The notes beneath the pieces are model-generated. The model made no database searches, was not told the DNA's origin, and saw only the letters and a program-made list of their open reading frames with translations. A program made the translations under genes and the position numbers. A stretch of 64,000 bases of DNA from Cyanophora paradoxa CCMP329 (lineage: Eukaryota; Plantae; Glaucophyta): assembly GCA_004431415.1 (NCBI GenBank), contig QPMI01000427.1, positions 116,030 to 180,029 on the forward strand. The letters run 5' to 3'. This document shows, piece by piece, positions 249-36,935 of this stretch (positions within the stretch are counted from its first letter, which is position 1; each line of letters opens with the position of its first letter).

Positions 249-397
249 CCGCGAAGCTGCAACTAACGCGAAGCCGAAAAGAAAGTGGGGGTACTGTGGG
301 CGGCCGTGCGCAGGCTGTACCCCGGAGGTAAGGGCGCGGCCCCGGCAGCGCGCTCCGGCGGAGAGAAACTGATCACGCCTTGCAGCGTAATCTATTA
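249..397 (-). repeat. Split direct repeat A2 of the YR retrotransposon
   Basis: ccgcgaagctgcaactaacg...gcagcgtaatctatta, identical to 9138-9286. Confidence 0.95.
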
Positions 398-1506: not shown

Positions 1507-2616
1507 TCACAGGCGCGGGGCGCCGGCGCTGGCGGCGCGGCCGGCGCCGAGAGGTAAGGTCAGCCCGGCGCCGGCCGTCATGTAGGCACTGCCCCGGCCG
1601 GAGAGGACCACTGCGGCATCGACATACTGCTCGGCGGTGGTGCTGCGGTGGGACCAGCCGCCAAGGACACGGAGCTCGCGCGTCGTGGCGCCGCCAAGGG
1701 CTGCCAGGGTGGCACCCGTGCGGCGGAGTGTGTGGGACGTCCAGCTGCCCTGAGCGCCTGAGGCGGCCGCCACCTCCTTAATGAGCCCGTTGATGTAATC
1801 ATACGTCACGGGGAGGCCGTCCGCGCCGCGAAAGAGGAGGTCGGTGGACAACCGGACCGCGGGCGGGAATCGTGCCAGATAGGCCCGGACGGCGGGGGCG
1901 AAGTCCCACAGGCGGCTGCGGGGCTGCCCGGGGGGCCGCGGTGGCGGGTCCAGGACGCGCACGACACGTGCCGGCTTCAAGGCGCCAGGGTTGGTCTTCT
2001 CCCACGGGAAGGAGAAATCGAAACCCGGGGTGCCGATGAGCGCGACGACGTCGCAGTGGCGGAGGTGGAGGACCTGCTCGCTCCGAAGCAGGCAGGCGAT
2101 GCCGATCAATACCATCGCCACGTCGGCTAGGGCCGCTGCCACTGGCTTCGACGCCAGGGCGGGAGACCGCAGCCAGGCATCGAGCATCGACGACTCGAGG
2201 GGGGTAGCCTGCTGCGTCGTCTGCGGGTTCCGCTGCGCGGCCCCACGCAGGAAGAGGCGGGTCGTGGAGGGGGGCGGGGGCTCCAGGCCCCGTGCCGCCA
2301 GCTGCCAACGAATGCCCGAGAGGATCTTGGCAAGGTACGCTGCCTTCTTGCCCTCACTCTCCAGGTGGGCGGCAAAGGCAAGGAGCGAGTCCGACTCAAC
2401 AGGGTCGAGCTCGCCCCCGCAGAAGGCCAGGTACCAGCCCCACCAGACGTCGTACTTGGCACGGGTTGTGCCCTGGATGGAGGCCGCCTGGGTCGCCCGG
2501 GCACTCGCCAGCAGCGAACGGACGCGCTGTGAGGGGGGCGGCCGTGGCGGGGGCGCGCTCAGCTCCGGCCGTGCGGCGTGAGCCGTGCGGGCACCGGCTG
2601 CACCGCCGGCGCCCAC
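1507..2616 (-). CDS. Tyrosine recombinase of the retrotransposon
   Basis: Catalytic motifs CLLRSEQV (R), WEKTN (K), SHTLRRTGAT (HxxR), LGGWSHRS (W), AEQYV (Y); N-terminal core-binding region TRAKYDVWWGWY. Confidence 0.93.
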   Translation of the reverse strand: MGAGGAAGARTAHAARPELSAPPPRPPPSQRVRSLLASARATQAASIQGTTRAKYDVWWGWYLAFCGGELDPVESDSLLAFAAHLESEGKKAAYLAKILSGIRWQLAARGLEPPPPSTTRLFLRGAAQRNPQTTQQATPLESSMLDAWLRSPALASKPVAAALADVAMVLIGIACLLRSEQVLHLRHCDVVALIGTPGFDFSFPWEKTNPGALKPARVVRVLDPPPRPPGQPRSRLWDFAPAVRAYLARFPPAVRLSTDLLFRGADGLPVTYDYINGLIKEVAAASGAQGSWTSHTLRRTGATLAALGGATTRELRVLGGWSHRSTTAEQYVDAAVVLSGRGSAYMTAGAGLTLPLGAGRAASAGAPRL

Positions 2617-5600: not shown

Positions 5601-8573
5601 GCTTGGTGGGGAACGGGAACTGGTCCTCCTGCCCCGGCGCCGGTCTTGGGACGGTGGCAGGGGGGGCCGACTCGGGGGCCGTGGCGGAGGCCACGCCTGT
5701 GGAGCCGCCGGCCGCTGCCAGCACGCGCTTGTACTCGCCCCCCAGGGTGCCTGCCATGCGGGGGCCGGGGTTGGTTCACGCGGCCAGAGGGGGGGGGGCG
5801 TGCGTCCGCTATAGCTAGCTATAGCGTGCTCGCCCGCAGGGCGGAGTTGCCTACCCCACTCCTCCGGCGCCGCGCCAGGGGCGTGCGGTTTGAACTCGAG
5901 GTTCAGCGTGGTTGTGCCAGCGGTCGCCATGGCGCCCTCAACCCTCACGGCATCCTTGCTCGCAAGGAACTCCATGGATGCGGCGGCCAGGGGGCCATTG
6001 GTGGCGCCGTCCTTCGTGAGGTATACGAAATCGTGCATTGCCGGTGCGGGGCGCATCACGGCCGTGAGGACACGGCTGAAGCTTGCCGCCGCGCCGATCA
6101 TGCCGGCGGTGTTCGAGGCGGGGAAGCAGGTGCCCTTTTTGGTGTTCGCCGCTGTGGCGTCGGTCACCAGGGCCTTCATGCCGGACGTGGCATCAATCTC
6201 AATCGGGCGGCGCTGCAGCTCCGCGGCCCGCGAGTGCGTGGCCGCGAGATGATAGCACTGCTGTGCCTGGCTCAACGTGACGTGCTGAATCAGCTGCGTC
6301 CGGAAATCCTCCAGGTGCGCCCGCGTAACAAACTCTGGCGGCGCCGGCTGGGCAGGCCGCTCCTGCTGATCGTGCCGCAGGAGCTGAATGCCGGGCTCGT
6401 GGCGGGCCTCGCGCTCGCGCAGGGCGACATCGGCAGCCGCCAGCACGTCCAGCCCCTTGGCCAGCAGCAGCTCAGCGCTGGCCAACGCTCCGTTGGACAA
6501 GTCGAACGCGACTGAGTGGCCGATGAACGAGCCGTAGATCTGAGCCTGGCGGGCCAGATCGATCCGCTCCTCCGCCGAAGCGTCGGTCAGCTGGCTGAAA
6601 TCGCCGAGGAGGCCGTTGCAGGCGGCCCGATCGAGATAGATCGAACCTGCCTTGAGCTGCGGCACGGTGCCGCTGCCCTGAAGGCCGAAACCGGAGCCAG
6701 CGAGGAAGTGACGCGGACCGCCCATGCGCCATGGCTGGCGCTTGATGTTCTCATGAACACCACCATGTGCCGCGCCGATGAGCTTGGCGAAAGCGGGGTC
6801 CGTCTTCGCCGCAGCGTAGAGCTCGTGCTGCTGCGCCTGGGCGTGCCCCGCGGCGGGGGCCGCCGCTGGGCCGCCGGCGCCGCCCGCACCCTCAAACTCA
6901 TCGACCTCGTACATGTCCTCATCCGAGGGAGGCGGAGCCTGAACGGGCGAGGGTGGGCGGTCGGCCGAGGCGCGGGCTAACCGCGGTAAGCCAGGCGGGT
7001 GTGGCAAGCGTACCCCGGGGCCCTGGCTGGGGAAGATGGGGGGGTCCCGCCGGAACTGCAGGGGGGCCTGCCCCGTGGGATCTGGCTGAGAAATCGTCAT
7101 TGGCGCTGTCGCGACCGGTGGCGGTCGCTTGACATGGGCCACCGGGCCTACCTGCATGCGAGCACGCATCGCGGCCGCCGAGGCCCGAGCCTCTCGCATC
7201 GCGTTGCCGAGGCCACTCTCGACTGCACCGAGTCGAGGCTCCGGCTGCGGAAGCGGCGATGGGGCCTCAGCTGTCTGCCCCAGGGGAGGGGCGCAGCGGG
7301 GAATGCCTACCCCGCGAACCAGCCTGGTGCCGGAGCTGGCACCAGTGGCCCGGGCCGCGAAGCTAGAGCGGCCGAGGCCGGGCGCCGCAAGGCCCCCTGG
7401 GCCCGGGGCCAGCCGTGCCGAAGCGGCTCCGGAAATCGAGGGTCGGATGCGCGGGGCCATCCGCATCGGCGGCACCTGCTGCTGCTGCATATGCTGCTGC
7501 AGCTGCAACTGCTCCTGCGGGCCCTCGGCGCCCTGGCCGGAGCCAGTGCCCGAGCTAGCCGCCCGGGGGAAAGACGCCGGCGCCGCCTCGTGCAGCTCCT
7601 CGCCCAGAATCGCGGCCGCACGTGAAACCTCGAAGAGCAGGGTCATGTCGCCCCGCACCCCTCCGCTCACATCCGAATAGCTGCCGTTGGCCGCCATCAG
7701 AGCCGACGGAGAGAAAGCCAGCATATCCGCCGGCGTCACCACGCGGCCGCGGGCGAGTGTCTCCCGCGCAGCAAGGCCGAGGGGGGTCGTCGCGAAAGCG
7801 TAGAGGCTCTCCAGGGCGAGCTGGATATTGGCGTCGCTCAGACGCTCGCTGGCGAGCTGCTGGGCGCCGACGCCGGCGGCGTTCTGCGCGGCCCCGATGA
7901 GGAGCTCGAGAAACGCGCTCTCCACCGTCGTGTAATGCGGGGGCAGAATCTGCCACAGGTCGAAGAGAGACCGGACCCCGGCTGGGCGGGACTCCGCTGG
8001 CAGGAGTGCCAGGCCGAACCACTGTGTAACGCCCCGTAGGACGTTCACGACCGCCGTCGACGTCGGCTCGTCCCTGGCGACGTCCGCCAGCTGGGCGAGC
8101 CGGTGCACGGTCTGCTGCTGGCCGGGACCGCCGGCCGCCGGCGCCGGGCCGACTAGCACGCGGTAGTCCGTGCCGCAGGGGCTCAGCTCGCCGAACTCGA
8201 ACTCGAACGTAATCTGCTCCGCGCCGTGCCGGAGCGTGCCGGCGCGCGCGCCGGTCTTCCATGTGTACGTGTGGACGGCGCCGGCCTCACTGCAGCCGAC
8301 GAGCACGCAGTCAACGCCCTCGGGCAGCTTGCTCAGTGCGTTGGGCTCTTCATCGGCGCGCAGGCCGGTCGCGATCTGGCGAGGGCGGGCCGTCGCGTTC
8401 GCTCTTGAAAAAGGTTGCAAAACGAATAGAAGCACCTGATACAGGAGCTTGGCCGATACCGGCAGCTCAGGGTTCTCGGCTGTAACAGTGCCAAGTTCCT
8501 CTCTACGGTTCTCGCCGAACCACGCGACGACGTCGCCCTCTGCGACCGGCCAGAACAGTAAGGATCCTGTCAT
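2559..8573 (-). CDS. Gag-like + reverse transcriptase + RNase H (+ degenerate methyltransferase-like tail) polyprotein ORF
   Basis: RT: AVPKKGADRFRRCLDAR, YDLRKGYYHI, LPFGV, YLDDG; RNase H: FTDAS, WRELRAV, RCDNSSAV, HIAGRRNVLADAGSR. Gag and Pol may really be two overlapping ORFs. Confidence 0.9.
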   Translation of the reverse strand: MTGSLLFWPVAEGDVVAWFGENRREELGTVTAENPELPVSAKLLYQVLLFVLQPFSRANATARPRQIATGLRADEEPNALSKLPEGVDCVLVGCSEAGAVHTYTWKTGARAGTLRHGAEQITFEFEFGELSPCGTDYRVLVGPAPAAGGPGQQQTVHRLAQLADVARDEPTSTAVVNVLRGVTQWFGLALLPAESRPAGVRSLFDLWQILPPHYTTVESAFLELLIGAAQNAAGVGAQQLASERLSDANIQLALESLYAFATTPLGLAARETLARGRVVTPADMLAFSPSALMAANGSYSDVSGGVRGDMTLLFEVSRAAAILGEELHEAAPASFPRAASSGTGSGQGAEGPQEQLQLQQHMQQQQVPPMRMAPRIRPSISGAASARLAPGPGGLAAPGLGRSSFAARATGASSGTRLVRGVGIPRCAPPLGQTAEAPSPLPQPEPRLGAVESGLGNAMREARASAAAMRARMQVGPVAHVKRPPPVATAPMTISQPDPTGQAPLQFRRDPPIFPSQGPGVRLPHPPGLPRLARASADRPPSPVQAPPPSDEDMYEVDEFEGAGGAGGPAAAPAAGHAQAQQHELYAAAKTDPAFAKLIGAAHGGVHENIKRQPWRMGGPRHFLAGSGFGLQGSGTVPQLKAGSIYLDRAACNGLLGDFSQLTDASAEERIDLARQAQIYGSFIGHSVAFDLSNGALASAELLLAKGLDVLAAADVALREREARHEPGIQLLRHDQQERPAQPAPPEFVTRAHLEDFRTQLIQHVTLSQAQQCYHLAATHSRAAELQRRPIEIDATSGMKALVTDATAANTKKGTCFPASNTAGMIGAAASFSRVLTAVMRPAPAMHDFVYLTKDGATNGPLAAASMEFLASKDAVRVEGAMATAGTTTLNLEFKPHAPGAAPEEWGRQLRPAGEHAIASYSGRTPPPLWPREPTPAPAWQAPWGASTSACWQRPAAPQAWPPPRPPSRPPLPPSQDRRRGRRTSSRSPPSASASGVSVLPLPPPLSGWSPRHSSARASSGSSSSPSVAPNSSPPCSARRRSRSRSPSPSHRPPRPRTSAPSRALPRGSTAAVAAAAEAEGGAVGEVARVAPATGAMPSGAATCTGTAAASRITEARATTSSSSISPALAPRSRRPGLSLPPATRPRLAPPTFLLSRLEAGRAVELQYCFPLVDLISLSPHAAPQRCPRAPTDGGPELDRLRTLVKAHGPQPPYDFARHKAAFRAGQLREAAPEWRRRFRAAGIEVPARVMLWLEQGFKIPLLRPGTPATARWDPANAATPEDIPPFCERNRPSCFIEVDGASAREFIDRDVLEDESIGVIDEIHPPMWPPPAHYSALHAVPKKGADRFRRCLDARRINEFIHLRRFRYQTLDDVLAIIRSLRGLDLYLLAYDLRKGYYHIALARITAIVLVFAWTFLNGITRVFRYNALPFGVALACYVFTKVMRAFAKYWAALKVLLGTYLDDGLFICRSLEEALLVSEHLRWLAPLLRLTFSDKGHVDAPTRLLIYLGLGIDVGRGECFLPPKKLDKLLGVLVPLVGKASAPARTLQSIAGSLNAARHAVVGARLVARPLTNAVAQAETLGSGSAAVVPLNALARRAIRWLAEYLPLAPPAPLWRPEQAYRLFTDASGLGYCAALDARPCASPDSLDAAPCRSIFGTWPEDIRGEDNSWRELRAVVIAAAELFPLVRGSHILVRCDNSSAVAAAVRGSLSEGMMDLALRLFGLCAQAGVTLDVLHIAGRRNVLADAGSRTRRPTLHWGLARRIRHWCGGTTWPHVHVASRHDAPFDGSARTPALYTVDARLRSEFLAWLCTHGSGSAWLVPYLPGTSSWLALQLAASQRGWFLQALPAEWRLPRDLFFAEGTGGAGGVGLGASPWPLYLCVASDADWVLGRPQGASSPRTSPPHPSPSAATGPTAPAATTTQPSRRPRHRRRRPVSGPSPAQDATLGLPAPGVRTQAPPLAQLLPQLGRQPAALPSRSLELDPWAPAVQPVPARLTPHGRS
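5209..5757 (-). CDS. Probable true Gag C-terminus (Gln/Pro- and RGG-rich) in an alternative frame overlapping the pol start
   Basis: Protein-like sequence ending GGRGGGGGGRGGRGRGGG...GGQSYYE*, whereas the long ORF reads as S/P/R-rich off-frame-like sequence over the same interval. Confidence 0.55.
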   Translation of the reverse strand: MAGTLGGEYKRVLAAAGGSTGVASATAPESAPPATVPRPAPGQEDQFPFPTKRQRQRGVGAATTAAIERVVSQALFSQGQLRQQFVPLGGPQQFAPMLGPPPQPFSFAQPFAPPPPAPYFGPQQGSAPGQYGGRGGGGGGRGGRGRGGGQGGAGHGGHAQRGGHVHGYGGGQQDYGGQSYYE

Positions 8574-9137
8574 ATGCGTGAGGATGTATGTGCGTGCAGC
8601 TCGTCTTGCTCTAGCCCACGTGAGCTACTACTCCGGAAGTGCGGCGCCGGGCACAGCCACGCGGCGGGGCGCCGAGCGAGCTCAGGCGTGCGAGTGTGGG
8701 ATGCTACGTGCCACACGATAATGTACTACGAGATTCAGACAAGACCACTACGGAGAGCTACCTGTGTACGCTAACTACGCCGGGCACCAGCCACGCGGCG
8801 AGCGCCGAGTATTCTCAGGCGCTGTGACTCTAATGTGGTATGGGAGCTACCTATGAAGCTATGAAGAAGGTTTATGGGAAGGGATGGTTGCCTAACTAGG
8901 CGCCTATGGAACGCTTGTACGGAAAGGCTGCAGCTGGCTGGCGCTAACTAGCTGCGCCAGTCAGCAGTGCGCGGCGCTGAGCGCAGGCGAGGCGCGGGAG
9001 CTGGATTGCCAAAGGCGGCCCCGCGCGCCCCCAACCGCACGCTCTTGCGATCACGCACCGTCGACAGGCCAGTGGAACGCCATTCGTTCACCCGACTCCC
9101 ACTAGCTACGTCTGTGATGCTGGCGATGGCTGCAGCT

Positions 9138-9286
9138 CCGCGAAGCTGCAACTAACGCGAAGCCGAAAAGAAAGTGGGGGTACTGTGGGCGGCCGTGCGC
9201 AGGCTGTACCCCGGAGGTAAGGGCGCGGCCCCGGCAGCGCGCTCCGGCGGAGAGAAACTGATCACGCCTTGCAGCGTAATCTATTA
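9138..9286 (-). repeat. Split direct repeat A1 (5' end of the YR retrotransposon)
   Basis: Identical to 249-397; flanked directly by unrelated MITE sequence from 9287. Confidence 0.95.
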
Positions 9287-10002
9287 GCATTAATTTGGGG
9301 GCGCATTAATATCGAAGCGCTAAGCCGGTAGGGCTCCGGCCCGGGTCCTAAAACCGGGACCCGCGACCCGCGGGTCGGGTCGACCCCCTGACCCGTGACC
9401 CACGGGTCCGACCCGGGTCGCTGGGGGGGGTACCGGTTGCGCCGAAAAACCGCTACAAAAACACGTGTTCGCTTCCGACTGAGACATTTCTGTCAGCGGC
9501 GCCCCGAACTCGGTCGGCAGCCAGTTGAGCGGCGCGGTCTTAGTCTTGTGGTTGCTCGGTAAGCTCCATAGCTATCGTGTGCATCATCCTCGTCGGCCCC
9601 CGTACTTTCTCTGGCGCAGCTCCGGTCGACGGCGTTTTGTGTGCCAGGTGCGACGCAGCCTTCGTCCTCCTGAATCACTGGATTGATGTGAGGGCTATAG
9701 CTAATGGCGTGCGCTCTTCGCCTCCCGCTGCGCGTTCCCGTGCAGGTCGACGCGTACGTCGCGCAGCGGCCGCGCCGCTGATCATGATCGGACCGCTAGG
9801 GCGGCTAGAACATGCATGCAACGTTGGAGCATTGCCGCAGGATGCTCTTCCATGTGTCCAGCGAAGGGCGGCTCTCCATTGCCGGCCGCCGAGCGAAGGT
9901 GCGGCGCCGGTGGCCGCGCCCCGCGGGAGTCTTGCCACGTGCGCCCTCCCTGTTGACTCTACGCTCTTTGTAGCCACACTACGCTCCCGCGGCGCACCGC
10001 GG

Positions 10003-10372
10003 GCGGCGAGCGCGCCTCCTCGAAGCGCGCCGCGTTGTAACCGAGGCCAGGCTGGACTAGTACTACGGCTGAGCCAAGGTGCGGCGGCCGCGGGGCGGGG
10101 GCGCGGGCGCCGCGCGCGCTTCCGCGCGCTTTGAGCTGATGTATTCTCCCTCGCAGCGGGCGCTGGCGGCCCGACGCGCCGCGAGCGGCGAGCGCGCCTC
10201 GTCGTAACCGAGACCAGGCTGTACTGCGGCCGAGCCAAGGTGCGGCGGCCGCGGGGCGGGGGCGGGGGCGCCGCGCGTGCTGCCGCGCACTTCAGGCCGA
10301 TGTAATCTCCTTCGCAGGGGGCGCTCGCGGCCCGACGCGCCGCGGGCGGTGAATGCGCCTCGCCGTAGCCAG
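10003..10372. repeat. Diverged tandem duplication (~170-bp unit) inside the hAT element
   Basis: gtaaccgag(g/a)ccaggctg...gagccaaggtgcggcggccgcggggcggggg...gatgta(t/a)tctcc...gcggcccgacgcgccgcg occurs twice. Confidence 0.85.
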
Positions 10373-11114
10373 ATGCCCCCTCCACGCACCTCCCCCCCCA
10401 TGCCGCCGCCGAGTTGTTTCTGTCTGTTTTGAGCCGTGCATGTGTAACGATGAACACATTATTAAAGCTCGCTTGAATTACTTTCCAAAGATGTGTAGCT
10501 GTCGGGGCTCGCCAGACGCGGAGCACTGCCGATTCCAGCCCGCCAGAGAGCCTGGCTGGTTCCAGAGAGTGAATGAGTGAATCGGCAATCAGGGCGTTGC
10601 GGGAGGGCCCTTAAACGCTATAATATATCGTATAATATCTATTCAAACGCATCTATAACGCTATCCTAAGAGCGCGGGCTGCCTGAATAAAGTGGCAGAA
10701 AAGTACGGCTTCTAGAGATCGCCAGAAGGCTAGACTACGTCATACAGTTGGTCTAGTCACTTTGGGCTGGACGGAGGGGAGTTTCGGACCATTTTATTCC
10801 CAGCGCTTCAGCATCGCCCCTGCAGCATATACTAACGCAATAAAATGTAATATAAGCTTAAATAGAACCTATCTAGTTCTTTTGGGGGGCCGGCTGCCGA
10901 CTAACAGTGACTTTGCATCTGCAGCTTCATGATCATGATCATCTGCAGCCCGCGGCCCGCCCCGAGTACGTTCCTTCCACATCCCGACACGGTCACTCCG
11001 CCCCATTCAGCTGTATATCGCTTGCGCTTGCTCTTACTCATGATCATATTTACTTGCTAGCTGCTGGCGCCGAGGGCGGGGGGAGTGACTAAGTCAACGG
11101 GGGAGGAGAGGAGG

Positions 11115-11910
11115 CCGAGGCGGGCGGCGGCGGGGCTCTCTGGGCGGGGCGCAAGCGCGGCGGGCGGCGGCGCGGCTCGCCGGCGGGGCGGAGGCGCGGC
11201 GGGCGGCGGCGCGGCACGCCGGGCGGCGCGGAGGCGCGGCGGCGGCGTCGGGGCTCGCCGGGCGGGACGCAAGCGCGGCGAGCGACGGCGCGGCTCGCCG
11301 CACGGGGCGGAGGCGCGGCGGGGGCCGGCGCGGCTCGCCGGGCGGGCCGGAGGCGCGGCGGGCGGCGTCGGGGCTCGTCGGGCGGGACGGAGGCGCGGCG
11401 AGCGACGGCGCGGCTCGCCGGCGGGGCGGAGGCGCGGCGGGCGGAGGCGCGGCTCGCCGGGCGGGGCGTAGGCGCGGCGGGCGGCGGCGGGGTCGCCGGG
11501 CGGGCGGGGACGCGGCGGGCGGCGGCGCGGCTCGCCGGGCGGCCGCGGGCCGGAGGCGCGGCGGGGGCCGGCGCGGCTCGCCGGGCGGGCCGGAGGCGCG
11601 GCGGGCGGCGTCGGGGCTCGCCGCACGGGCGGAAGGCGCAGCGGGCGGCGGCGCGGCTCGCCGCCCGGGGCGGAGCGGCGGCGCGGCTCGTCGCCCGGGC
11701 GGAGCGGCGGGCGGCAGCGGGGCTCGTAGCCCGGGCGAAGGCGCGGCGGACGGCAGCGGGGTCGCCGCACGGGGCGGAGACGCTGCGGGCGTAGGAGGAG
11801 CTCGCCGCACGGGGCGGGGACGTCGACGCGGCCGCCGGCCGGCGGCGGCGCGGCTCGCCGCACGGGCGAAGGCGCGGCGCGCGCCGGCGGGCGGTGGCGG
11901 GGCCGCCGCA
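11115..11910. repeat. Extremely GC-rich minisatellite (gcgcggctcgccgg / ggaggcgcggcg units)
   Basis: Dozens of degenerate copies; stop-poor frames produce spurious R/A/P-rich ORFs. Confidence 0.9.
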
Positions 11911-12884
11911 CGTGGCGTTGACTACGTATACCTCCCGCCGGACGCTGCAGTGATTCCATTTCTCGGAACGCTTCTGTCCCGCGGGAACAAGGTCCGACGG
12001 TCCGGCTGTGGTGCTGCCGCCATCGCTGAGCTGCTTCGCTGCAGCTGCCGCCACCTCTACGGTGCCACCGGGAACCCCCTCACACGGATCCGACCCTTTG
12101 TATGGACCCGACCCGCCGGGTCACCACCTGGACCCGTGACCCGCGGGTCAGGCGACCCACGGGTCCACCCGCGGGTCCGGCGACCCGGGCCGGAGCCCTA
12201 TAAGCCGGCGCTAAGAAAACTGCGGCATGTACCCCCCTCACTCTGCTAGAAGGCTTCAAACCGCATTAATTCGGGGGCGCATAATTATCCGTAATGGGGG
12301 TCCGGGTCCAAAAACGCATTACTTACAGGCGCATTACTTAAGTGTTTTACGGTACTAGGCTAGCGCTGCAGGCTGCAGCCACTGTCCGGCCCACTGAGTA
12401 CTAAGTTCTACTAACTAGTACTGTGATTCTGTGCTCGAAGCCGTTGCAGTGATTTTTTTCGCCCGGCCAGTGGACCGATCACCACTTTTTTGTACCGGTA
12501 AGTTGGGCGTGACTCCGGAGTCTCCGGTGAGTTGCCGGTAAGTTGCGGTGGTAAGTCGCCGGTAACGCCGGTAGGTTCGCGGTAATTGCGAACTTACTAC
12601 TGCGGGAGTCTGCGCATATACTATGATATACGTGGCATTGCAGTAACTTAGTAATTATAAGTTAATGGCATTGCCGTAACGGTATACGTATTACGTAGAC
12701 TCGAGGCTGTGGCCGGTAATTCAATAAAAAATGATCGGCAATTTAACGACTCGGCAATGTTGCTGGTTAGGGGGGTAGGTATTTTCTTAGCCCGCCATTA
12801 AACATGTACAGAATTAATTATAACCTAAATTCGGCAATTTATCGCCACGGCAATTCCGATTTTGGGCGAATTCGGCAATTTTTC

Positions 12885-13282
12885 TTCTTTTTTTTTAGGG
12901 CGAACCCCCCGGGTCCCCCCCGTAGGTAGTAAAATAGAAAATCGACAAAGCAATCACGAATCAAACATTTTTTTTTTTTTTTTAAGATCTACGGTGGGCG
13001 TGCCCACTCGTAGTACACAACGAGGATACAAGTCACGGTATCGGGAATCACAGGGATTCGAAGTACAACGTAGCGGAAACAGCAGGAACCGAACCCGGGA
13101 ATCCGGGAGGTCGTAGCACGACCTTATACCACTGCGCTAAAGCGCGGGTATCAAACATAGTCGTAGGCAATATTAATCGAGATCGCAAGACATATGCATA
13201 ACTTCAGCAGCATAAGAACTAGCCTAGTAGGGATCACGACGACTCGTCGACGAGGCACACGATCGCGACTCGGCGAGAACGC
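12885..13282 (-). mobile_element. 5'-truncated non-LTR retroposon fragment (related to the 17646 and 21402 family)
   Basis: poly(T) at 12885-12896; 16-bp TSD aattcggcaatttttc (12869-12884, 13283-13298); shares gggcgaacccccc...cgtaggtagt...caaagcaatcac with the other copies. Confidence 0.75.
12969..13149 (-). mobile_element. Second retroposon fragment nested inside the previous one
   Basis: Long poly(T) ending at 12983; 9-bp TSD atcaaacat (12960-12968, 13150-13158); 3' stem-loop ctacggtgggc-gt-gcccactcgtag. Confidence 0.75.
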
Positions 13283-13531
13283 AATTCGGCAATTTTTCGC
13301 CTCGGCAATCCTACACTGGCACAGAACTATCATCAGTGACTATCACTCATGATCACTAGTACTGACTCGTGAGTCAGTGAGCGCTCATCATCATGGCATG
13401 CCATGATGGCATGCAGGATGATGCAGCTACTACTAGGCTACTACATTAGTACTACCGTAGTACTAGTACTACCGTACACGGTACATCATGGCATGTACAA
13501 GGCTACACAGTCTACACTGTACATACTACTA

Positions 13532-13754
13532 CTGTCATGTCATTAAGTTAGGCGTCGCTTTTCTTAGACGTTTGCCCACCCGTCGTGATAGACGTTCACA
13601 AAGATAGACGAGCAGCTGGTCGCTCCATACAAGCGTTACTATGGCATACCCCCTTTAGGCACAGTTAGACGGGGATTAAGTTAGACGAATGGGTGATCAT
13701 GAACTCGTCTATCCGCGCCTAACTTTGTCGTCGCCTAACTTTGTGGATTGACAG
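13532..13754. mobile_element. TA-flanked MITE with imperfect TIRs
   Basis: TA-ctgtca...aagttaggcg at left and cgcctaactt...tgacag-TA at right; internal tagacg repeats. Confidence 0.65.
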
Positions 13755-14566
13755 TATCATAGTATGATACTAGTAGCCTACTAAGCCTAGTAGAGCGGGG
13801 CTGCACAGCCTCACAGACTGCAGTGTCACACTGTCACTGCACTAGCCTTAGTACTAGTTAGTAGCCTGCACTGTCTGGCAGTCACAGAGTGTCTGCACAC
13901 TCAGTGACTGTGAGCTCGAGTCTGTGACATGTACATTGTACAGCCTGCCAGGCATGCATGCGCGGCGCAGTGGCCCAGCGCTAGCTATATATAGCGGCGC
14001 CGGCTGCGCACGCATCATCATGGCATGGCATGCGCATTCAGGCTGCACTGCAGCTGCAGCCTGCAGCCTCATCGATATCATCATGATGATCATATTATCA
14101 TGGCATGACTCCGGATCCGGATCCCGCATGCCATGATGAGCATGATCATCGCCGTCGGATACTGATGACTCAGTGATGAGTATCCGATGTGGACCGATGA
14201 TCGATCCGATGATCAGGCACTGCGGCAGCATTCAGTGCCATTCAATGATTCAGGCTGCAGCCTGCAGCCTCGCCCGGCCGAGTCGTAGTCGGGCTGCACT
14301 GGCTGCAGGCTGCAGCCGCTGAGCCAGTCACTGTCACTCACTGAGTGACGTCCGACTGATGATCATGGCATAGTACCGTAGTACTACTACTGTACTACTA
14401 CAGTACTAGTACTAGTCACTGAGTATGCATGCAGCTGGTCGATATCATGATCATGATTCACGATTACGACGGTCTCGCTCCGGATATATACACGTACGCG
14501 CGCTCGTCACGGCGTCTCGTTCGGCCGCCCACGATATCGCTCATCGCGCACAAAGGCGGGATATCG

Positions 14567-17500
14567 ATGAGCAACCCTAGGCCTTCCATCTCGAGCCCTC
14601 GAGCTCGGGGTTCGAGATGTAAATCGCTCTCGCTGCAGCTGGCCATGGTCGCACTCGCCGCAGCGGTGCTCCTCGGCTGCAGCTGCCCCGGTGACTGCAG
14701 CTGCCCCGGCCCCCGGCCGCGGGTCACCGCCCGTAGCGATTGCAAGCTGCACGCACATGTGTAACTGCAGATATAAATCTCTAGATCTAGACCGTGAGCT
14801 TGTTTCGCGCGAACGTTAACGCCAACGCGCATGCACATGCGCAGGGGTCGGGGCGCTCTCGGACCGCCTGCTGCCGGGCATCCGCTCGCTGCCCGTCGGG
14901 AGCGGCTGGAGCGACATCGCCCAGGGGAACTACACATTCTGTTTGGGAAATGATCCTGCCGTAGACGGAGGCACGCCCGTGCATGTGGAAGGCGAGTTGA
15001 CGGCTCAGCGCCTAGCGCTGTGCTTGCGACATTGACCGTGTATGCCGGTCCAGTTTACACATCTATATATATACGCCCGCAGGAACTGGCACTGGGGCGA
15101 AGTTCCACGGTTATATTTCGAGTGCGCACAATCATGATCACGATCATAAGCGTAATCAAAAATATCATAACATCGATATCTGCGAGTAATGTATATATAT
15201 ATAAACGTTAACGCTGCTCGAGCTCGAGCTCACTACTGATCATCCGCGGTCGTGCATGTGTTCAGGTCTTCATTACTCACATTTCGATGGTTGGTTTATC
15301 TATAAATATTAATCGAACATAGAACAAGAGGTTTCGCCGTTGTAACACACACCCATGGCCACCGCCGTCGGCGCGCGTCCGCAGGATACCTCTACGTGGG
15401 GGACGGGTATGGCATTTCCAGGGTGAACAGCAGCTGCTCATCGCAAGCCGTCGCGGGATACCACCCGGACCAGCCTCCTTTGCCCGATGTGGGCTCAACG
15501 AAATCTGCACGCGACGTAGCAATCGTGTGAGCATAAAAATTGTCTTTATTCGCGACTCGGTGAAGTCTTTTGAGGCGAAGCTTATTATAAGACGCCTCCG
15601 GATCCGCAGCGACGTGCGCGCAATACACGCCAACTCAAGCAGCGGCCTTTTTTGGATGCAAGGAGAGGACCTTACCATCGGCTACCTTAATCTTGCGACC
15701 TCGGAGGTCACGACACTGTGGAAATCCGGGATGTACGGCTCTGACTGTCCGGCTTTGGACTCGTGCGCTGGCGCATACGTATACTACGCGAACGGATTCG
15801 GATCCATGACTTACCACGCGGGCAAGATTTATGTTCTAGCAAAGCGCGATCTCGCATCGACTGTTTGTGCTAGCTGTGTCGTCAGTGATGGGCGGAGATC
15901 CCTCCGTCAATTCACGGACAGCGAGGCCGGACGGCACAGCGTCGTTCTTTTCACAATCCCCTCTACAGGTGCTGGGCTTCCGTGTCTGAATCCGATTGCA
16001 TCTGTTTGCAATTACTTACAGTCGTTCCTTATTATCAGGGGGACGCTCCTCGTTTGTTGCGGCCTTCGCATCCAGCTCTAGCGGTGACGGCAGTGGTAGA
16101 GTAATATCGAATTCGCTGGCAGCCGAGGCTGTGGGCTCCTCCGTCCACGTCTACGCCGGCGTCCGCGAGGATGTGCCTGCTGCGGGGGGGATCGGCGACG
16201 GTCTCCCGTCCCGTATTGTCAAGGTGCGTTCGAATTCACGTCGCGTCGCGGCCGTACGCGTCTGCAGCTGCTTCAAATTCTCTCGATCACTCTAGAAATC
16301 GATATGGAATATATGCATGCGCAGCTTGTGATCGGTGCATCCTCCACCGTCGTCTCAAACTTCACGACATTCACCGCGAGCTCCTCGCCGCCCTACATCC
16401 ACGGGCTCGCCATCGTGAAAACAACGTGCGCTCGCGCATCGTTTTCACCGACTGCAGGACTCGCGATCGATGCTCACATGCACCTGCGCGGGTGGCTCGA
16501 CGCAGCCACGGCCCGTGGCGGCTCGTGGCTCAAATCGAGGAGTCTGTGACGAAAAGGTTCATCGCGTCGTACGACTCTTCCGGCACCGAAGTGGCCGGCG
16601 AGAGGATCGAGTCCGCTGCCAAGTGCGTTCGTGTTCGCACCTCCGAACTGCGAACTCTTTATTATTAATATTATAATTAATATTTATGGCTCATACTTCA
16701 TTTGCCACGTGCACCTTCAGCCCCTTTGGAGTGGAGCTCACGACAGAAGACCCATTTGTGGATAAAACTGAGATCCGTCCGTTTCCGGCGCTCACAGATA
16801 TCGGCTCGCGCGATCACCCCATCATTTACTCCGCTTGGGCGAGAGTGCGCTTCGGCGACAGCGGAAATGCGGTTGATAGTTTTATAGGCGCAAAAGCTGG
16901 TTTCATTTTCGCCCATCGCCTGAACACCACGATTGCGTTCCCCACCCCGAGCCCGAGCCCGTCGCCCAGCCCGTCGCCCAGCCCGTCGCCCAGCCCGAGC
17001 CCCTCCGGCACCCCGGTGCGCGCCCCCGTCGACGTCGCATAAATCAAGCTTGTCAAAGCGCTAGCCGCTGAGCTTGTTACTGATTTCCCCGCATTCAATC
17101 GCGAGACTCGAGATCTAGATCTGATACAGTCTTCCTTGTCGTATTCAGAGTCCGTCGCCAAGCCCGAGCCCCTCCGGCACCCCGGTGCGTGCCTCACTGC
17201 ATGACTCAGTGACTTCAACTTAAGCTTGTTTCTCTATATGTATATGTGCATGCGGGGCTCTGCTTCTCAGAGCCCGTCGCCTTCCCCGAGCGCGACGCCG
17301 GCGCCCGAGGCGCCCACGCCGACGCCCTCGAGCCCCGTCCTCGCCCCCTCGCCGACGCCGGCGCCCGCGCCGACTCCGCTGTCGGGAACGTCGACGGCTC
17401 CTACGCCGACCCCCGCACCGGCGGCGGCTTCCAACTCGAGCTCGACGGGCGCCGGCGCGGCCCCGGACGCGGCGATGGCGGCCGGCGTGACCGGCCCGAC

Positions 17501-18952
17501 GTCGAAGGTGGTCGTCAAGTCCAACGTCACCGAGCAGTCCACCACCGTCTCCACGAGCTTCGACACCGAGAGCAGGGTCCGTCCAATTGCAAGAAGGCTT
17601 TTCTTTTAACCACTTCCAATATTAATTGCAATTGTTTATTAACAATTTTTTTGAGAGACTACGGTGGGGCGAACCCCCCGTAGGTAGTGATATTAAAGAC
17701 AACAAAGCAATCACAAATCAAAGATACAGTAAACTAGCACAAAATATATACAGAATCAAGAGGGATCACGAGAAGGGACACGATCAGAATTGTTTATTAA
17801 CAACTTCTTCATTTAAGATGCATTTGTTTGATATATATTGTCCACTTGCAATTGTACCTAACATCGCGCGGGCCGGGCAGTGCAAGGACTGGAAGCACTC
17901 GTTCAACCCGAACAAGGAGCGCAAGAGCCTGCTCGACACGCTCAACAAAGACCGCTCGGACAAGGACAAGTTCGACGACTCGATGATCACCGTCGGCAAC
18001 GCCGACTGCAAGAGCTCGTGCGCGGGCCGCTTGAGTTTTGAATCGTCGCTTAATCGGTTTTATTCAAACTCGGAATCGAACGTCTCGCAGGCGCAAGGCG
18101 GCCCGCCGCCTGCTGGCGACGACGGGCGCCTTCGGGGTCGTCGTGCGGGACCAGATCACCACAGGCGGCACGACCGGCGCCCTCGGCGCCTCCGCCCTCT
18201 TCACGGCGCTCAAGACGGCCGTCACCGCCGGCCAAGTCACCGTGAGCGCAATCTCGATGCTCGATCGCACCAATATAATAAGCCAACTGACGCGTCTCCG
18301 TCGCGCAGGTCAACGGGGCGAAGGCGTCGACCATCGCGGACCCCGTCGTGAAGGTGTACGCGCCGGGGACCTTCACGTACGAGCCGCCCGTCGCGGCGGC
18401 GGCCGCCGTGCAGGCCTCCCCCTCCTCCGCCTCGATCCGCTTCCAGTCGACGCAGGCCGAGTGCGACGCGCACATGAGCTCCAACACACTCCTCACCGTG
18501 CGCTTCATCGCCCGTTGCTGATCATGAGCTCAATTAAAACATGAGCTTGTAAATGGCCTCATGAATTACTGTTTTCCGTCGTTGATTAAATTTCGCGAGC
18601 GCAGGTGGAGGACGCGCTCCACGCGGCGATCAACGCGCTCAAGGGCCCCGTCTCGCGCTCGCAGGTGGCCGTGACGGGCATCGCCTGCACGGGCGGCGGC
18701 TTCTCCGTCGCCGTCTCGCTCGGCGCCGGCGGCGCGTACAAGACGGGCAAGGAGCTCGCCGACGCCGTCCAGGCGGCCGTCGCCGACCGCTCGCTCAAGC
18801 TCGGCCCGTACGCCGCCATCGCCGGCGGCGCCGGCCTGACCTCCGGCTCCGACACGTACTGGCCCTCGACCGGCGCCCGGGCCGCCTCGACCGCGCTCGG
18901 GGCCGCCCTGCAGCTCGCCGCGGTCGCCGGCCTCCTCGCCCTCGCCGCGTAG
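14567..18952 (+). CDS. Multi-exon host gene: secreted, probably GPI-anchored Pro/Ser/Thr-rich surface glycoprotein (exon boundaries approximate)
   Basis: Signal-like MVALAAAVLLGC at 5'; GC3-rich exons separated by AT-richer GT..CAG introns; (SP)n and PTP repeats at 16945-17015 and 17270-17430; hydrophobic C-terminus GARAASTALGAALQLAAVAGLLALAA*. Confidence 0.72.
17646..17787 (-). mobile_element. 142-bp 5'-truncated retroposon insertion in an intron
   Basis: poly(T); 16-bp TSD aattgtttattaacaa (17630-17645, 17788-17803); one mismatch versus 21413-21549. Confidence 0.92.
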
Positions 18953-20165
18953 CCTAGTGCTAGTACTAGTAGCTTTAGTTTTGGCGACGCCAACGCTCGC
19001 GATCGCGCTCGTGTGATAAATGGCTATATATAATTCTTAACTATAGCTAAATATATGATAGCTATAGATAGTTATTATATAACGCTCGCCGCGTAGCCTG
19101 TAGCTAGCGCTAGCTATAACATTAGGGTATACTTATACGTACTTTTCCGACACGACTCCATGGCCAGCGTAGGCGCTGGCATGGTATCCAGCCCGTAATG
19201 TAATAAATGTTAATATATATTCTAGAAATGACAGATCTAGATCGACGCGAACAGGGGCTAGGGGCGGGCCCCCCTGCGGAGGGGCCCCGGCCCCCGGGGC
19301 GTACCTCGAGCCCCGTCGACGTCCGAGCCCCGCCTCGCCCGCGCACCACGGCCAAGTTCTACGAGACATCAAGCGGGCATCTAGGACGTCGACCGTGCAG
19401 CTCATAATGCCGCGCTCACTGCTAGAGGACCGGCGCATATTATGTTCTGGAGGCGACTCAGTAGACTACAGCTCAAGCACCAGCTCGACACGACTACTAG
19501 CTGTAGCACTCTTGTCATCTATCTCCTCCTGCAGTCAGCATCCCAGTATCCGGTAGGCGAGGAGCGGGGCCGGGGCCGGGGACTGTTGTCAAGTGTGTAC
19601 GAATGCAACAGGCTTTCCCAAAAAAACGAGCCCCGCCTCGCCCAGGGAGAGGGCGAATTCGAATCGAAGCCCGTGGGGGGGTCCGCCGGTGCCGCCGCCG
19701 GGGCCCCGAGCCCGCCGGGCCGGGCCGGCCCGGCCGCCGGCCCCGCCCGCGGCCGCGGCGCCGGCCCGGCGCCGGGCCGGCGGGCGCCGGCGCAGGCCCG
19801 GGCCGCCGCCGGCCCGCCGGGCCTTGCGCGGGCCGCGGCCGGGGCCAGCCTGGCAGCTGCAGCCTGCAGCCTGGCAGCCAAGCAATTGCGGCCGGCGCCC
19901 CCGGCGCCCGAGCCTCGGACTCTCGGAGTCGCGGGCCGGCCGGTCGCGGGCCGCGGGCCGGCGCCGGCGCGCCGGCCGCGCCGCCGTCGCGCCGGCGCGC
20001 CTCGCCGGCGCCGAGTCGCGGCCCCGGCGGCCCGGCCACTAGTACTGGGCCAGGGCCGGCCCTCGCGGCGGTACCGTAGACGGTCCGTAGTACCCTCGAG
20101 CCTCGGAGCTCGCAATTCAAAGTTGGCTGGTGGGCCAGTGGTGGCCAACTTCGCAATATAGGCTA

Positions 20166-20478
20166 CCGTAAAACACTTAAGCCTTTGAAGTAATGCGGGC
20201 ACTTAAGCCTTGAAGTAATGCGGTCGACGTCCCGAAATAATGCGTTTTCCGCTGACAAAACGCATTAATTTGGGGGCGCATTAATATCGAAGCGCTAAGC
20301 CGGCGCTAAGAAAACTGCGGCATCCCCCTCACGCTGCCAGCCTGGCAGAAGCCTTGAAGGCTTCAAAACGCATTAATTCGGGGGCGCATAATGAACCGAA
20401 CTGGCATGGGGGTCCGGGTCCAAAAAAGCATTACTTACCGGCGCATTAATATTACTCAGTGACTTCAGTGTTTTACGG
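20166..20478. mobile_element. Uninterrupted copy of the CCGTA-ended MITE
   Basis: TA-ccgtaaaacactt ... agtgttttacgg; homologous to 9287-9328 and 12209-12352. Confidence 0.85.
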
Positions 20479-21401
20479 ACCCTGCTCAACAAGGAGAAGC
20501 ACGGCCGGCAGTTCGCTTGTAAGACAGTGTTCAAAAACATCAGCGCGACATCGAGCATCGACAGCCATTCCATTGCTGCTCTCGTTAATCTGTATGAGCT
20601 GTACCTTGCATTGCTGGTGTTCCCATTTTCGAGTTGGCAGGCCAGATTAAGAAGGCAGTAGGGCGACGTCGACGTCGACCTGAAGGGTCTCCAGATGGAA
20701 AGAAGCGGAAGTCGACTTAGTTGTTTATGTTTCACTGAACAATTTGAGCAAGATCGTATACGTACGTGCGTAGCTAGCTAGCGCGCGGGAAAGAGATGGG
20801 AAAGAGGGGCGTACATGGGGTACCCCCTCCTCAAGCATTTGACAAATATTTGACCTAGCCGAGGGGCCAAGCATTTGAGCCGGCCGGCTCGGGTGCTTGG
20901 CTTGGCTTGACTCCGGAAGGCCAAAATTTGGCTTGGCTTGGCTTGAAGCCGGGGGGGGTCAAGCATCAGGCCTATTTACGGTAGCCTGCAAATAGGCTGC
21001 AATCATGATTGCAATGCCATGATGCCCTGAATGATGAGCCTGAATATTAATCAGGCAGCATGCCGCAGACTCAGTGCACGTGACTCCCGCAGCGTCCCGC
21101 TGGAGTCCCCGGCGACTCCCCGGGCCCGCATGCGCATTGCGCAGTGCATATGCATGGCACTGGCCGCACTGCGCATGCCATGATGCATGGCAACATTGGC
21201 AAGTCTGCTGCTGTCGACGTCCGACGGTCACAGACTCACAGCTGCAGTCACTGAGTGTCTAGATCTGGCACTGTCTGCATGCGCAAGGCTGCAATTGCAA
21301 CTTACTAACTTCGCAAGTTGCAATTCAATGTTTATAAGTTGCCGTACGCGTAGAGCAGGAAAATACTGGGCCGGAAATTAGTGGATCATAAAACTTGGCC
21401 C

Positions 21402-22572
21402 TTTTTTTTTTTGAGAGACTACGGTGGGGCGAACCCCCCGTAGGTAGTGATATTAAAGACAACAAAGCAATCACAAATCAAAGATACAGTAAACTAGCAC
21501 AAAATATATACAGAATCAAGAGGGATCACGAGAAAGGACACGATCAGAAGAACGCAAAAGATAAGGAGAACGAGCACGAGGAGAAGGAGTAGAAGAGCTC
21601 AAGGGCGTCGATGCAGAAGTACTAGTCACACTAGAACGACGAGGAGCACGGGGACGCAGCAAATAAGGAGAACGAGCACGAGGAACTACAGTCGAAGACG
21701 AAGATCTAGACGAAGACGACAAGACAGAGCTAACAGCAGAACTAGAAGACGTAGTCGCAGGAGGCAAAGGCGGTAGAACAGTAGGAGAGGCGAAACGTAG
21801 GACACCACTAGAGGGGAAAGTCGAAGCTGGCGGAGTGTCTAAACGGAATCGAGATTGTAGAGTTGGTAAAACAATGGACGGCTGAAGACTAATCTGAGGA
21901 ACTGGGGACGACACGAGGAAAGGGGCAGAGCTCGGGTGCAGACTCGGAATCGGCAGTATAAGAGGAGGGGCGAAACGCAAGCCAGTAGTGACAGGGAAGG
22001 CAGACGATGGGCTGAACCAGGCGGGAGAGGCAAATATAGCGAAGTAGAAGAGAGAGAAGGGTACACACGAGGAACGTCACCATACACAAAATACTCGCTG
22101 CCAAAAACTATACGGTCTGACGGTCGCTGAAGATAAAGAGGCGGAACTGCCTGAGGGCTAACAGTGAGAGATGGAGGAGGAAGAGGCAGAGCTAACGACA
22201 AAGGGAACGGAATCAAAGGTACAGGGAAGGCATGGAATACACGAGGAACTGGAAGGTGGAGGGGGCCAGTGCTCCTAACTAACATCGATGAAGCATCTGA
22301 TGGAGGTGACGGCAAAACAACTGAGGGTAAACTAAGTTGAGGTGAAGCGAAGATTGATACAAGACTATCATGAATCAAAGGGGGCCATGCAGGAACCGGC
22401 GGGCGAGGTGGATCTGGCGGGACAGCCAGAGGGGAAGCCGAAGGTACAGGAGAGGAAAGCCGCAGGCGCCGAGACACATGGACAGGGGACGGATCGGCAT
22501 CGGGAGGCAAGGTTGAATTCGACGGAGACCGGCTCGCTTCCAGGAGAACCCCACCAATTGCGCGACCTTCCC
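21402..22572 (-). mobile_element. Longer 3' portion of the same non-LTR retroposon, cut by PLV-1
   Basis: T11 tail, first ~137 bp nearly identical to 17653-17789; purine-rich plus strand continues to an abrupt composition change at ~22573; no matching TSD in window. Confidence 0.78.
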
Positions 22573-36862: not shown

Positions 36863-36935
36863 ACACATATGAATATTCATATTTTAATCCCTCGGCGTTC
36901 CGCCTCAGGATTAAAATATGAATATTCATATGTGT
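36863..36935. repeat. Terminal palindrome/hairpin: 28-bp perfect arms, 17-nt loop
   Basis: acacatatgaatattcatattttaatcc (36863-36890) / ggattaaaatatgaatattcatatgtgt (36908-36935). Confidence 0.92.

What the first reader, a model, noticed from the sequence alone, without database searches (positions are those of the whole stretch)
20166..20478. Host DNA accumulates short templated fold-back (palindromic) insertions
Seen: comparing the two MITE copies, ctgctagaaggcttc (12243-12257) corresponds to ctgccag-cctggcag-aagccttg-aaggcttc (about 20334-20364), i.e. inserts that are inverted copies of adjacent bases; gcattacttaagtg becomes gcattaatattactcagtgacttcagtg. In the hAT duplication ggctgtact corresponds to ggctggactagtact. 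A 20-bp perfect palindrome cgctatagctagctatagcg sits in the YR element (5807-5826). Intergenic tracts 13320-14470, 18950-19140 and 20990-21330 are saturated with overlapping micro-palindromes (actagt, agtact, catg, tgca, gatc, agct). Viral regions lack this texture. Inference: a pervasive repair/replication process (snap-back synthesis or hairpin opening) rewrites neutral DNA and may degrade TEs.
Basis: partly seen in the sequence, partly recalled or inferred. Interest (0 to 1): 0.72.

Follow-up and report, generated by a model that had tools for sequence, protein, structure and literature searches.

The report
Transposon-style scars saturate algal non-coding DNA
The short palindromes in this alga's non-coding DNA are real and come largely from two exact kinds of tiny insertion (6 and 8 letters, built from a three-letter word, its reverse complement and the word again), which are likely scars left where jumping genes cut themselves out and which make up about 8% of the host DNA examined here.

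Summary
With x any 3-mer and x' its reverse complement, 11.6 kb of host DNA holds about 110 x-x'-x sites (about 5 expected) and 34 x-C-x'-G-x sites (0.4 expected); the reversed x-G-x'-C-x occurs once. Paralogues show these are 6- and 8-nt insertions at a single x. The 313-bp MITE copy carries seven. Short-read contigs confirm 92 sites letter for letter. Scars fill introns and spacers and nest in layers; the 8-nt class is near background in reading frames, and both classes are at background in the two integrated viruses. A fixed 3-bp duplication and a strand-symmetric C…G argue against generic snap-back or Pol-theta repair. The best fit is excision footprints of cut-and-paste transposons with 3-bp target duplications (CACTA/EnSpm-Transib type): flank hairpins are opened and rejoined through x/x' microhomology, and one family leaves the element's terminal C in each hairpin tip. 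The element itself was not found. The host matches Cyanophora paradoxa gene models at 99-100%. Hairpin footprints are known; I found no paper describing this grammar or density.

The parts
20166..20478 (.). MITE copy B (TIR begins CCGTAAAACAC, TA before it; Tc1/mariner-like by termini, label from recall) carrying seven scars
   Evidence: a family of many copies by contig depth
20179..20190 (.). 8-nt class scar with one extra T (aag-C-ctt-t-G-aag); near fit
   Evidence: 9-nt gap against the reverse complement of copy A's right TIR; exact in X5 contig 19589-20258
20205..20215 (.). 8-nt scar aag-C-ctt-G-aag
   Evidence: absent from the loose-end consensus of paralogues (table 7); exact in X5 contig
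20223..20231 (.). 6-nt scar gtc-gac-gtc
   Evidence: paralogue loose end joins at 20229 without the 6 nt; exact in X5 contig
20338..20348 (.). 8-nt scar cag-C-ctg-G-cag
   Evidence: absent from copy A and from a paralogue contig; B allele not covered by contigs
20349..20359 (.). 8-nt scar aag-C-ctt-G-aag
   Evidence: as above
20445..20453 (.). 6-nt scar att-aat-att
   Evidence: absent from copy A and from paralogue loose ends; B allele not covered by contigs
20454..20464 (.). 8-nt scar act-C-agt-G-act inside the right TIR
   Evidence: absent from copy A and from TIR symmetry; B allele not covered by contigs
20665..20679 (.). two stacked 6-nt scars gac-gtc-gac-gtc-gac in a deleted hAT transposase fragment
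   Evidence: paralogue DNA and RNA contigs lack 17 nt; depth dips give 12.0 nt in this bin and 5.0 nt at 20590-20612 (position inferred from depth)
19385..19393 (.). 6-nt scar gac-gtc-gac
   Evidence: 6 nt missing in 2312 of 2584 depth of paralogue contigs (table 4)
21546..21548 (.). empty site (aga) at which other copies of this repeat carry aga-tct-aga
   Evidence: AGATCT inserted in a minority of copies in runs X1 and X5 (table 4)
10056..10064 (.). 6-nt scar act-agt-act in the hAT-internal duplication (ambiguous with tandem duplication)
5807..5826 (.). 20-bp perfect palindrome in the YR element ORF; parses as an 8-bp palindrome plus two in-frame 6-nt scars (parse inferred, no paralogue seen)
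13320..14470 (.). densest tract: 36 scars in three nested layers, 252 of 1151 nt
   Evidence: exact contigs 13122-13594 and 13725-14588
20990..21330 (.). scar-rich spacer
   Evidence: exact contig 20946-21378
18950..19140 (.). spacer with 6-nt scars only; modest palindrome excess
16225..18604 (+). introns of a host gene: 13 six-nt and 3 eight-nt scars in 888 nt (0.4 and 0.02 expected)
   Evidence: boundaries read by eye, some off by one; last three introns confirmed by the EukProt model
9287..12352 (.). MITE copy A, split by a hAT-like element (9329-12200, 19-bp TIR, 8-bp TSD); reference copy without scars

Best explanation
The palindromes come largely from two exact insertion types, x to x-x'-x (+6 nt) and x to x-C-x'-G-x (+8 nt), which are likely excision scars of cut-and-paste DNA transposons that duplicate 3 bp on insertion. 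SHOWN: the grammar, its polarity as insertion, its nesting, and its absence from the viruses. INFERRED: (1) the element inserts and duplicates x; (2) on excision the transposase seals both chromosome ends as hairpins, as RAG, Transib, hAT and MULE enzymes do; (3) a host nuclease opens them, leaving 3' tails x-x' on one side and x'-x on the other; (4) the tails pair through x'/x, the only microhomology they share, and fill-in gives x-x'-x; (5) a second family nicks one base inside its C…G termini, so each hairpin tip keeps a C and the product is x-C-x'-G-x. A CACTA/EnSpm (CMC-Transib clade) element is the likely author. In a haploid host every excision not repaired from a sister chromatid leaves a scar, and neutral DNA accumulates them.
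For: Fixed 3-bp unit: 126 loosely merged x-x'-x sites vs 5.3±2.5 in trinucleotide shuffles (110 clusters under stricter merging); 2-mers 108 vs 69.5; 4-mers 2 vs 0.3; mirror, complement and direct controls 8, 21 and 12. C…G 34 vs 0.4 expected; G…C 1. The pattern is its own reverse complement, as a two-ended symmetric reaction predicts. C and G are not flank-derived: 3 of 34 have the flanks that Ac/Ds chemistry needs. Of 13 indel sites of 4 nt or more seen against paralogues, 8 fit exactly (11 scars), 1 nearly, 4 not. Peeling one layer exposes 13 + 6 new motifs vs at most 4.8 + 0.4 by chance. No flank consensus, so no restriction-type site. The 8-nt class is 1 of 27 in reading frames vs 31 of 117 outside (p=0.009). 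The classes differ in target bias (A-W-T for 8-nt) and clustering. CACTA elements have 3-bp TSDs and CA..TG ends and share motifs with Transib/RAG1 (PMC12730594 passages). A carnation CACTA left short palindromic footprints (PMC3859356 passages).
Against: No 3-bp-TSD element and no CMC transposase were found in the window; the genome could not be searched. The hairpin-forming elements seen here are hAT (8-bp TSD), which cannot give this product. Published CACTA and Ac/Ds footprints are heterogeneous and short, not a clean 9-mer. I know of no flank-hairpin transposase that nicks one base inside the element (recall). The implied rate is high: 4 scars against 11 substitutions in 184 aligned bases of copies A and B, all 4 in B. 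Exact motifs explain 243 of about 276 excess even palindromes but only 68 of about 174 excess odd ones, and an excess remains after peeling. Contig tables were truncated (12 of 435 and 12 of 28 indel rows shown), and four named scars lack read cover.
Confidence: 0.7

Rival explanations
1. No element is inserted. A host or domesticated transposase-like nuclease makes 3-nt staggered breaks at near-random sites, the ends are filled, hairpinned and rejoined, and the scars arise directly. This could be a programmed or defensive process.
For: Same product geometry. No matching element was found in the window. Local rate approaches the substitution rate.
Against: The C…G pair has no source without element ends. 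Two discrete classes with few one-sided products (about 9 vs 3 expected after peeling) fit two families better than one sloppy enzyme. Scars are as dense in host introns as in repeats, which does not suggest targeting of TEs.
Confidence: 0.15
2. One reading: snap-back or template-switch synthesis (Pol-theta end joining, fork U-turns) writes inverted copies of adjacent bases.
For: Inserts are reverse complements of adjacent bases. Residual odd palindromes and 4 of 13 indel sites do not fit the two classes.
Against: From established knowledge such repair gives variable lengths, needs priming microhomology and usually deletes flanks. Here the unit is fixed at 3, the polarised targets had no palindrome, and a single-strand U-turn adding one base would give C…C, not C…G (5 vs 34).
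Confidence: 0.08
3. Slippage duplication of existing palindromes, or selection for palindromic motifs (regulatory or chromatin), creates the texture.
For: The 10056 insert equals a tandem duplication. 3-mer tandem repeats are also somewhat enriched.
Against: Ancestral states at 19385, 20223, 20445 and 21546 lack x', so duplication cannot make it. 31 of 32 3-mer classes are used, with no motif consensus. Scars sit inside TIRs and dead TE fragments.
Confidence: 0.05
4. Long-read or assembly artefact.
For: Four named scars have no matching contig in run X5. About 17% of sampled words are missing from the best runs.
Against: 62 six-nt and 30 eight-nt sites lie in short-read contigs identical to the window. 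An independent example occurs in other copies of a repeat. Viral DNA on the same contig lacks the pattern.
Confidence: 0.02

Closest known systems
Ac/Ds (hAT) excision footprints with P-nucleotides (PMC5873905, PMC1978519, PMC4561436; passages read)
   Same: Palindromic insertions copied from flanking DNA, explained by flank hairpins, opening and microhomology-mediated joining.
   Different: 8-bp TSD; heterogeneous footprints centred on the complement of the flanking base. Here the unit is 3 bp, there are two stereotyped products, and the centre bases C and G are independent of the flanks (3 of 34 fit the hAT register).
CACTA/EnSpm footprints (carnation dTac1, PMC3859356 passages; TSD and termini from PMC12730594, PMC6379663, PMC12810828 passages)
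   Same: 3-bp TSD of variable sequence, C…G termini, short palindromic footprints between the TSD copies, kinship with Transib/RAG1.
   Different: The two footprint sequences I could read add 4 nt to the single target and one TSD copy is clipped; no full x-x'-x or x-C-x'-G-x. Described at single loci, not as a genome texture.
V(D)J coding joints, Transib and MULE Muta1 (PMC5499845, passages and section 12)
   Same: A flush hairpin on flanking DNA, which is what the 6-nt class needs.
   Different: TSDs of 5 bp (Transib, recalled) or 8-9 bp (Muta1); Muta1 excision is mostly precise; no retained terminal base reported in what I read.
Tc1/mariner footprints (PMC3878927 passages)
   Same: Terminal bases of the element stay between two TSD copies.
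   Different: TA target only, 2-3 element bases, no reverse complement of the target.
Pol-theta templated insertions and short template-switch mutations (recalled, not read here)
   Same: Inverted copies of nearby sequence at a junction.
   Different: Variable length and position; no fixed 3-bp duplication or C…G pair.

Membership tests
CACTA/EnSpm (CMC) excision footprint | 3-bp target duplication of variable sequence | tested here: met
   x duplicated at 8 of 13 polarised indel sites; unit 3 sharply preferred; 31 of 32 3-mer classes used
CACTA/EnSpm (CMC) excision footprint | element termini C…G | tested here: inconclusive
   C then G in 34 of 53 one-base-loop triplets, but only one base per end and no element seen
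CACTA/EnSpm (CMC) excision footprint | a filled site (element with TIRs and TSD x) in an allele or paralogue | tested here: inconclusive
   none in 22.7 kb of host DNA; genome not held
CACTA/EnSpm (CMC) excision footprint | CMC-type DDE transposase in the host genome | not testable with these tools
   no hit among 73 window ORFs (73 of 114 listed were scanned); genome-paper supplement unreadable
CACTA/EnSpm (CMC) excision footprint | flank-hairpin chemistry shown in vitro | not testable with these tools
   inferred from product geometry
hAT (Ac/Ds) footprint | 8-bp TSD remnants around the scar | tested here: not met
   no 6-mer triplet with one-base loops; polarised inserts duplicate 3 nt
hAT (Ac/Ds) footprint | palindrome centred on the complement of the flanking base | tested here: not met
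   3 of 34 have C before and G after
Tc1/mariner footprint | TA target with 2-3 element bases | tested here: not met
   x is any 3-mer; TA-NNN-TA shows only small counts (CCG 5 vs 0.5, overlapping the 8-nt class and MITE ends)
Pol-theta / template-switch insertion | variable template length, often with flanking deletion | tested here: not met
   unit-length spectrum; clean junctions at the fitting sites
Pol-theta / template-switch insertion | dependence on POLQ | not testable with these tools
   no genome, no mutants

The most novel reading that the evidence does not exclude
A CMC/Transib-clade transposase with an undescribed cleavage register (nick one base inside the element, hairpin on the flank) and a flush-cutting sister family have excised so often in this glaucophyte that their scars rival point mutation as a source of change in neutral DNA. 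They lengthen introns and spacers in 6- and 8-nt steps and leave a countable, layered record of every past jump, possibly hundreds of thousands genome-wide.
Probability: 0.4. Interest if true: 0.8.

Novelty: new variant of a known kind. Interest (0 to 1): 0.63.

Why it matters
If true, transposons that are no longer present have written a measurable share of a eukaryote's non-coding DNA (982 of 11,618 host bases here). That gives a direct count of historical excisions, which is normally invisible, and a mutational force on intron length in an intron-rich basal archaeplastid. The x-C-x'-G-x scar predicts a specific, testable cleavage register for a transposase group related to RAG1. It also warns that abundant palindromic k-mers in such genomes need not be regulatory motifs.

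Tried and rejected
Whole genome not held, so all counts are from one window. MITE motif scans: 13 metagenome loci were short chance matches (19-34 nt alignments), viral contigs gave none. A 20-nt double-scar motif found nothing in viral or prokaryote contigs. The hAT protein had no relative in viral contigs. TIR+TSD searches found only the 8-bp-TSD hAT (output partly cut). The prediction that each end keeps its C independently failed: one-sided forms are rare, and raw counts ran the other way (x-G-x'-x 11 vs x-C-x'-x 8; x-x'-C-x 15 vs x-x'-G-x 5). By eye most are frame shifts of full motifs, but 17 such sites vs 3.3 expected remain after peeling and are not fully explained. Aligning the YR ORF to homologues did not test in-frame scars because the sites lie outside the well-aligned part. 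No RNA holder was listed for the stretch, which is no evidence. The Volvox Jordan and Idaten papers, recalled as 3-bp-TSD elements with 3-9 bp footprints, and Yu et al. 2004 could not be retrieved. Footprint figures of PMC6379663 and PMC3193017 are not held as text. The supplement of PMC6704402, which may list DNA transposon classes, was unreadable; that of PMC12344493 had no CACTA terms.

Full report
SETTING. Bases 1-22.6 kb are GC-rich eukaryotic DNA with short GT-AG introns, a tyrosine-recombinase retroelement (RT and integrase domains), a hAT-like element with an 8-bp TSD, MITEs and retro-insertions. Bases 22.6-64 kb are two AT-richer integrated viral elements. A host exon set matches an EukProt model at 99-100% and a hAT fragment matches another at 100% over 29 aa.

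1. OBSERVATION. Short palindromes with 0- or 1-base centres exceed dinucleotide shuffles strongly in 13320-14470 and 20990-21330, modestly in 18950-19140, and not in viral DNA. Short-read contigs from three DNA runs reproduce 4,001 nt of these tracts exactly, including 62 of 117 six-nt and 30 of 37 eight-nt sites in 9100-21600. The four scars at 20338-20359 and 20445-20464 had no B-specific contig in run X5; the tool warns that contigs drop rare variants, so this is neither support nor refutation.

2. WHAT IT IS. The inserts share a grammar. Let x be a 3-mer and x' its reverse complement. In 11,618 nt of host DNA (GC-rich tandem tracts, the YR element and young retro-insertions excluded; exons of one gene included), x-x'-x occurs at 126 loosely merged sites vs 5.3±2.5 in 30 trinucleotide shuffles, or 110 clusters under stricter merging. 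Units of 2 (108 vs 69.5) and 4 (2 vs 0.3) show nothing comparable, and mirror, complement and direct triplets reach only 8, 21 and 12. Among 53 triplets with one-base loops, 34 are x-C-x'-G-x (0.4 expected) and one is x-G-x'-C-x.

Polarity. Thirteen indel sites of 4 nt or more were visible against paralogues (the indel tables showed 12 of 435 and 12 of 28 rows). Eight fit exactly and hold 11 scars: 10056, 19385, 20205, 20223, 20338-59 (two), 20445-64 (two), 20665 (two, placed by depth dips of 12.0 nt in two runs) and 21546 (insert in other copies). One fits with an extra base (20179). Four do not: 4 nt at 20323, 5 nt near 20400, 5 nt at 20590-612 and an 11-nt tandem unit at 19567. At 19385, 89% of paralogue depth lacks the 6 nt; at 21546 only a small minority has them; in the MITE, TIR symmetry and copy A fix the ancestral state. 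At 19385, 20223, 20445 and 21546 the ancestor has x without x', so slippage cannot explain them.

Distribution. Excess 6-nt sites per kb: introns 14, spacers 12-15, hAT body 4.5, exons 3.4, YR ORF 2.2, viruses 0.0-0.1. The frameshifting 8-nt class is 31 of 117 sites outside reading frames and 1 of 27 inside (Fisher p=0.009; boundaries partly read by eye, and about 6 of the coding sites are expected by chance). Collapsing motifs in silico exposes a second layer of 13 + 6 and a third of 1, against at most 4.8 + 0.4 by chance; in all 152 events and 982 nt, or 8.5%. Five of 110 clusters are double hits, about what random re-hitting gives (my estimate). The 6-nt class has no target consensus; the 8-nt class prefers A-W-T and is clustered (17 in 13290-14520, 0 in the next 800 nt, regions chosen after the fact). 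Exact motifs account for 243 of about 276 excess even palindromes but 68 of about 174 excess odd ones, so decayed scars or a further class remain.

3. MECHANISM. Shown: a clean 3-bp duplication with one inverted copy between, with or without a C…G pair. The 8-nt pattern reads the same on both strands, each strand carrying a C right after its first copy of the 3-mer, which points to a symmetric reaction at two DNA ends. The C and G are not complements of flanking bases (3 of 34), which excludes the Ac/Ds register (PMC5873905 passages). Inferred: an element inserted with a 3-bp TSD; excision left hairpins on both flanks; opening gave tails x-x' and x'-x whose only shared microhomology is x'/x, so variable opening still converges on x-x'-x. 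If the first nick falls one base inside termini that begin with C, each hairpin tip holds a C and the product is x-C-x'-G-x. Independent ends would give about 120 one-sided products (my arithmetic from 110 and 34); about 9 consistent ones are seen vs 3 expected, so two families or two concerted modes are more likely. CACTA/EnSpm elements have 3-bp TSDs and CA..TG ends and share catalytic motifs with Transib and RAG1 (PMC12730594 passages); flank hairpins are shown for hAT, Transib, RAG and Muta1 (PMC5499845). Confidence 0.7. The main gap is that no such element or enzyme was found. Rivals: an element-free 3-nt-stagger nuclease (0.15), snap-back or Pol-theta synthesis (0.08), slippage or selection (0.05), artefact (0.02).

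4. COMPARISON. It works like hairpin excision footprints of Ac/Ds and like V(D)J P-nucleotides, but fails both hAT tests. It meets the 3-bp TSD test for CACTA; the other CACTA features are inconclusive or untestable, so I do not file it as a member. The only CACTA footprint sequences I could read (carnation, PMC3859356 passages) are short palindromic joints, not the full 9- or 11-mer.

5. NOVELTY. Ten full-text searches (open-access library only) listed no paper on this grammar, on genome-scale saturation by such scars, or on palindromes in this alga's nuclear DNA; 'palindrom' does not occur in PMC6704402. Older subscription papers on En/Spm and Volvox footprints were not available and may hold x-x'-x examples. 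Unchecked notes of this scan describe the same 6-nt pattern in a yeast and other scar types in fungi, a diatom, an alga and a protist. I read them after forming the footprint reading (note). They are leads, not support; they suggest scar saturation recurs and so lower the uniqueness of this case. None of the lines shown mentions the C…G class.

6. VERDICT. Real feature; a new variant of a known kind; interest 0.63.

Noticed in passing
window 20481-20742: Internally deleted hAT transposase fragment; an RNA-labelled contig of 2,269 nt has about 1.7 kb more at 20567-20569 with a 3-nt overlap, so a longer copy probably exists and may be transcribed.
   Followed up: partly
window 249-12352: Nested stack: a YR retroelement (149-nt identical direct repeats at 249 and 9138) abuts MITE copy A, which is split by a 2.9-kb hAT-like element with an 8-bp TSD.
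   Followed up: partly
window 2559-8624 and 1507-2907 (-): YR element with a 2,021-aa stop-free frame (RT domain) overlapping a tyrosine recombinase frame; nearest database relatives only 57% and 47% identical.
   Followed up: partly
window 17646-17800: A 144-nt truncated copy of the repeat at 21406 sits in an intron of the surface-protein-like gene, flanked by an apparent 15-nt duplication (by eye); the EukProt model starts just after it.
   Followed up: no
window 36922-64000: Integrated virus with 771-nt terminal inverted repeats (97% identical), rve integrase, primase-helicase domains and a 2,054-aa tail-fibre-like ORF.
   Followed up: no
window 22.6-36.9 kb: Second integrated virus with rve integrase, D12 adenine methyltransferase and AP2/HNH protein, ending in a 35-bp hairpin at 36863-36935 directly against the other virus's TIR.
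   Followed up: no
window 12495-12565 and 12735-13309: Short direct repeats (CCGGTAA x3 plus one at 12713, TCGGCAAT x6) that resemble subterminal arrays of DNA transposons; no matching TIR pair with a TSD found.
   Followed up: partly
window 11090-11910: GC-rich 40-nt tandem array present at high copy elsewhere in the genome.
   Followed up: no
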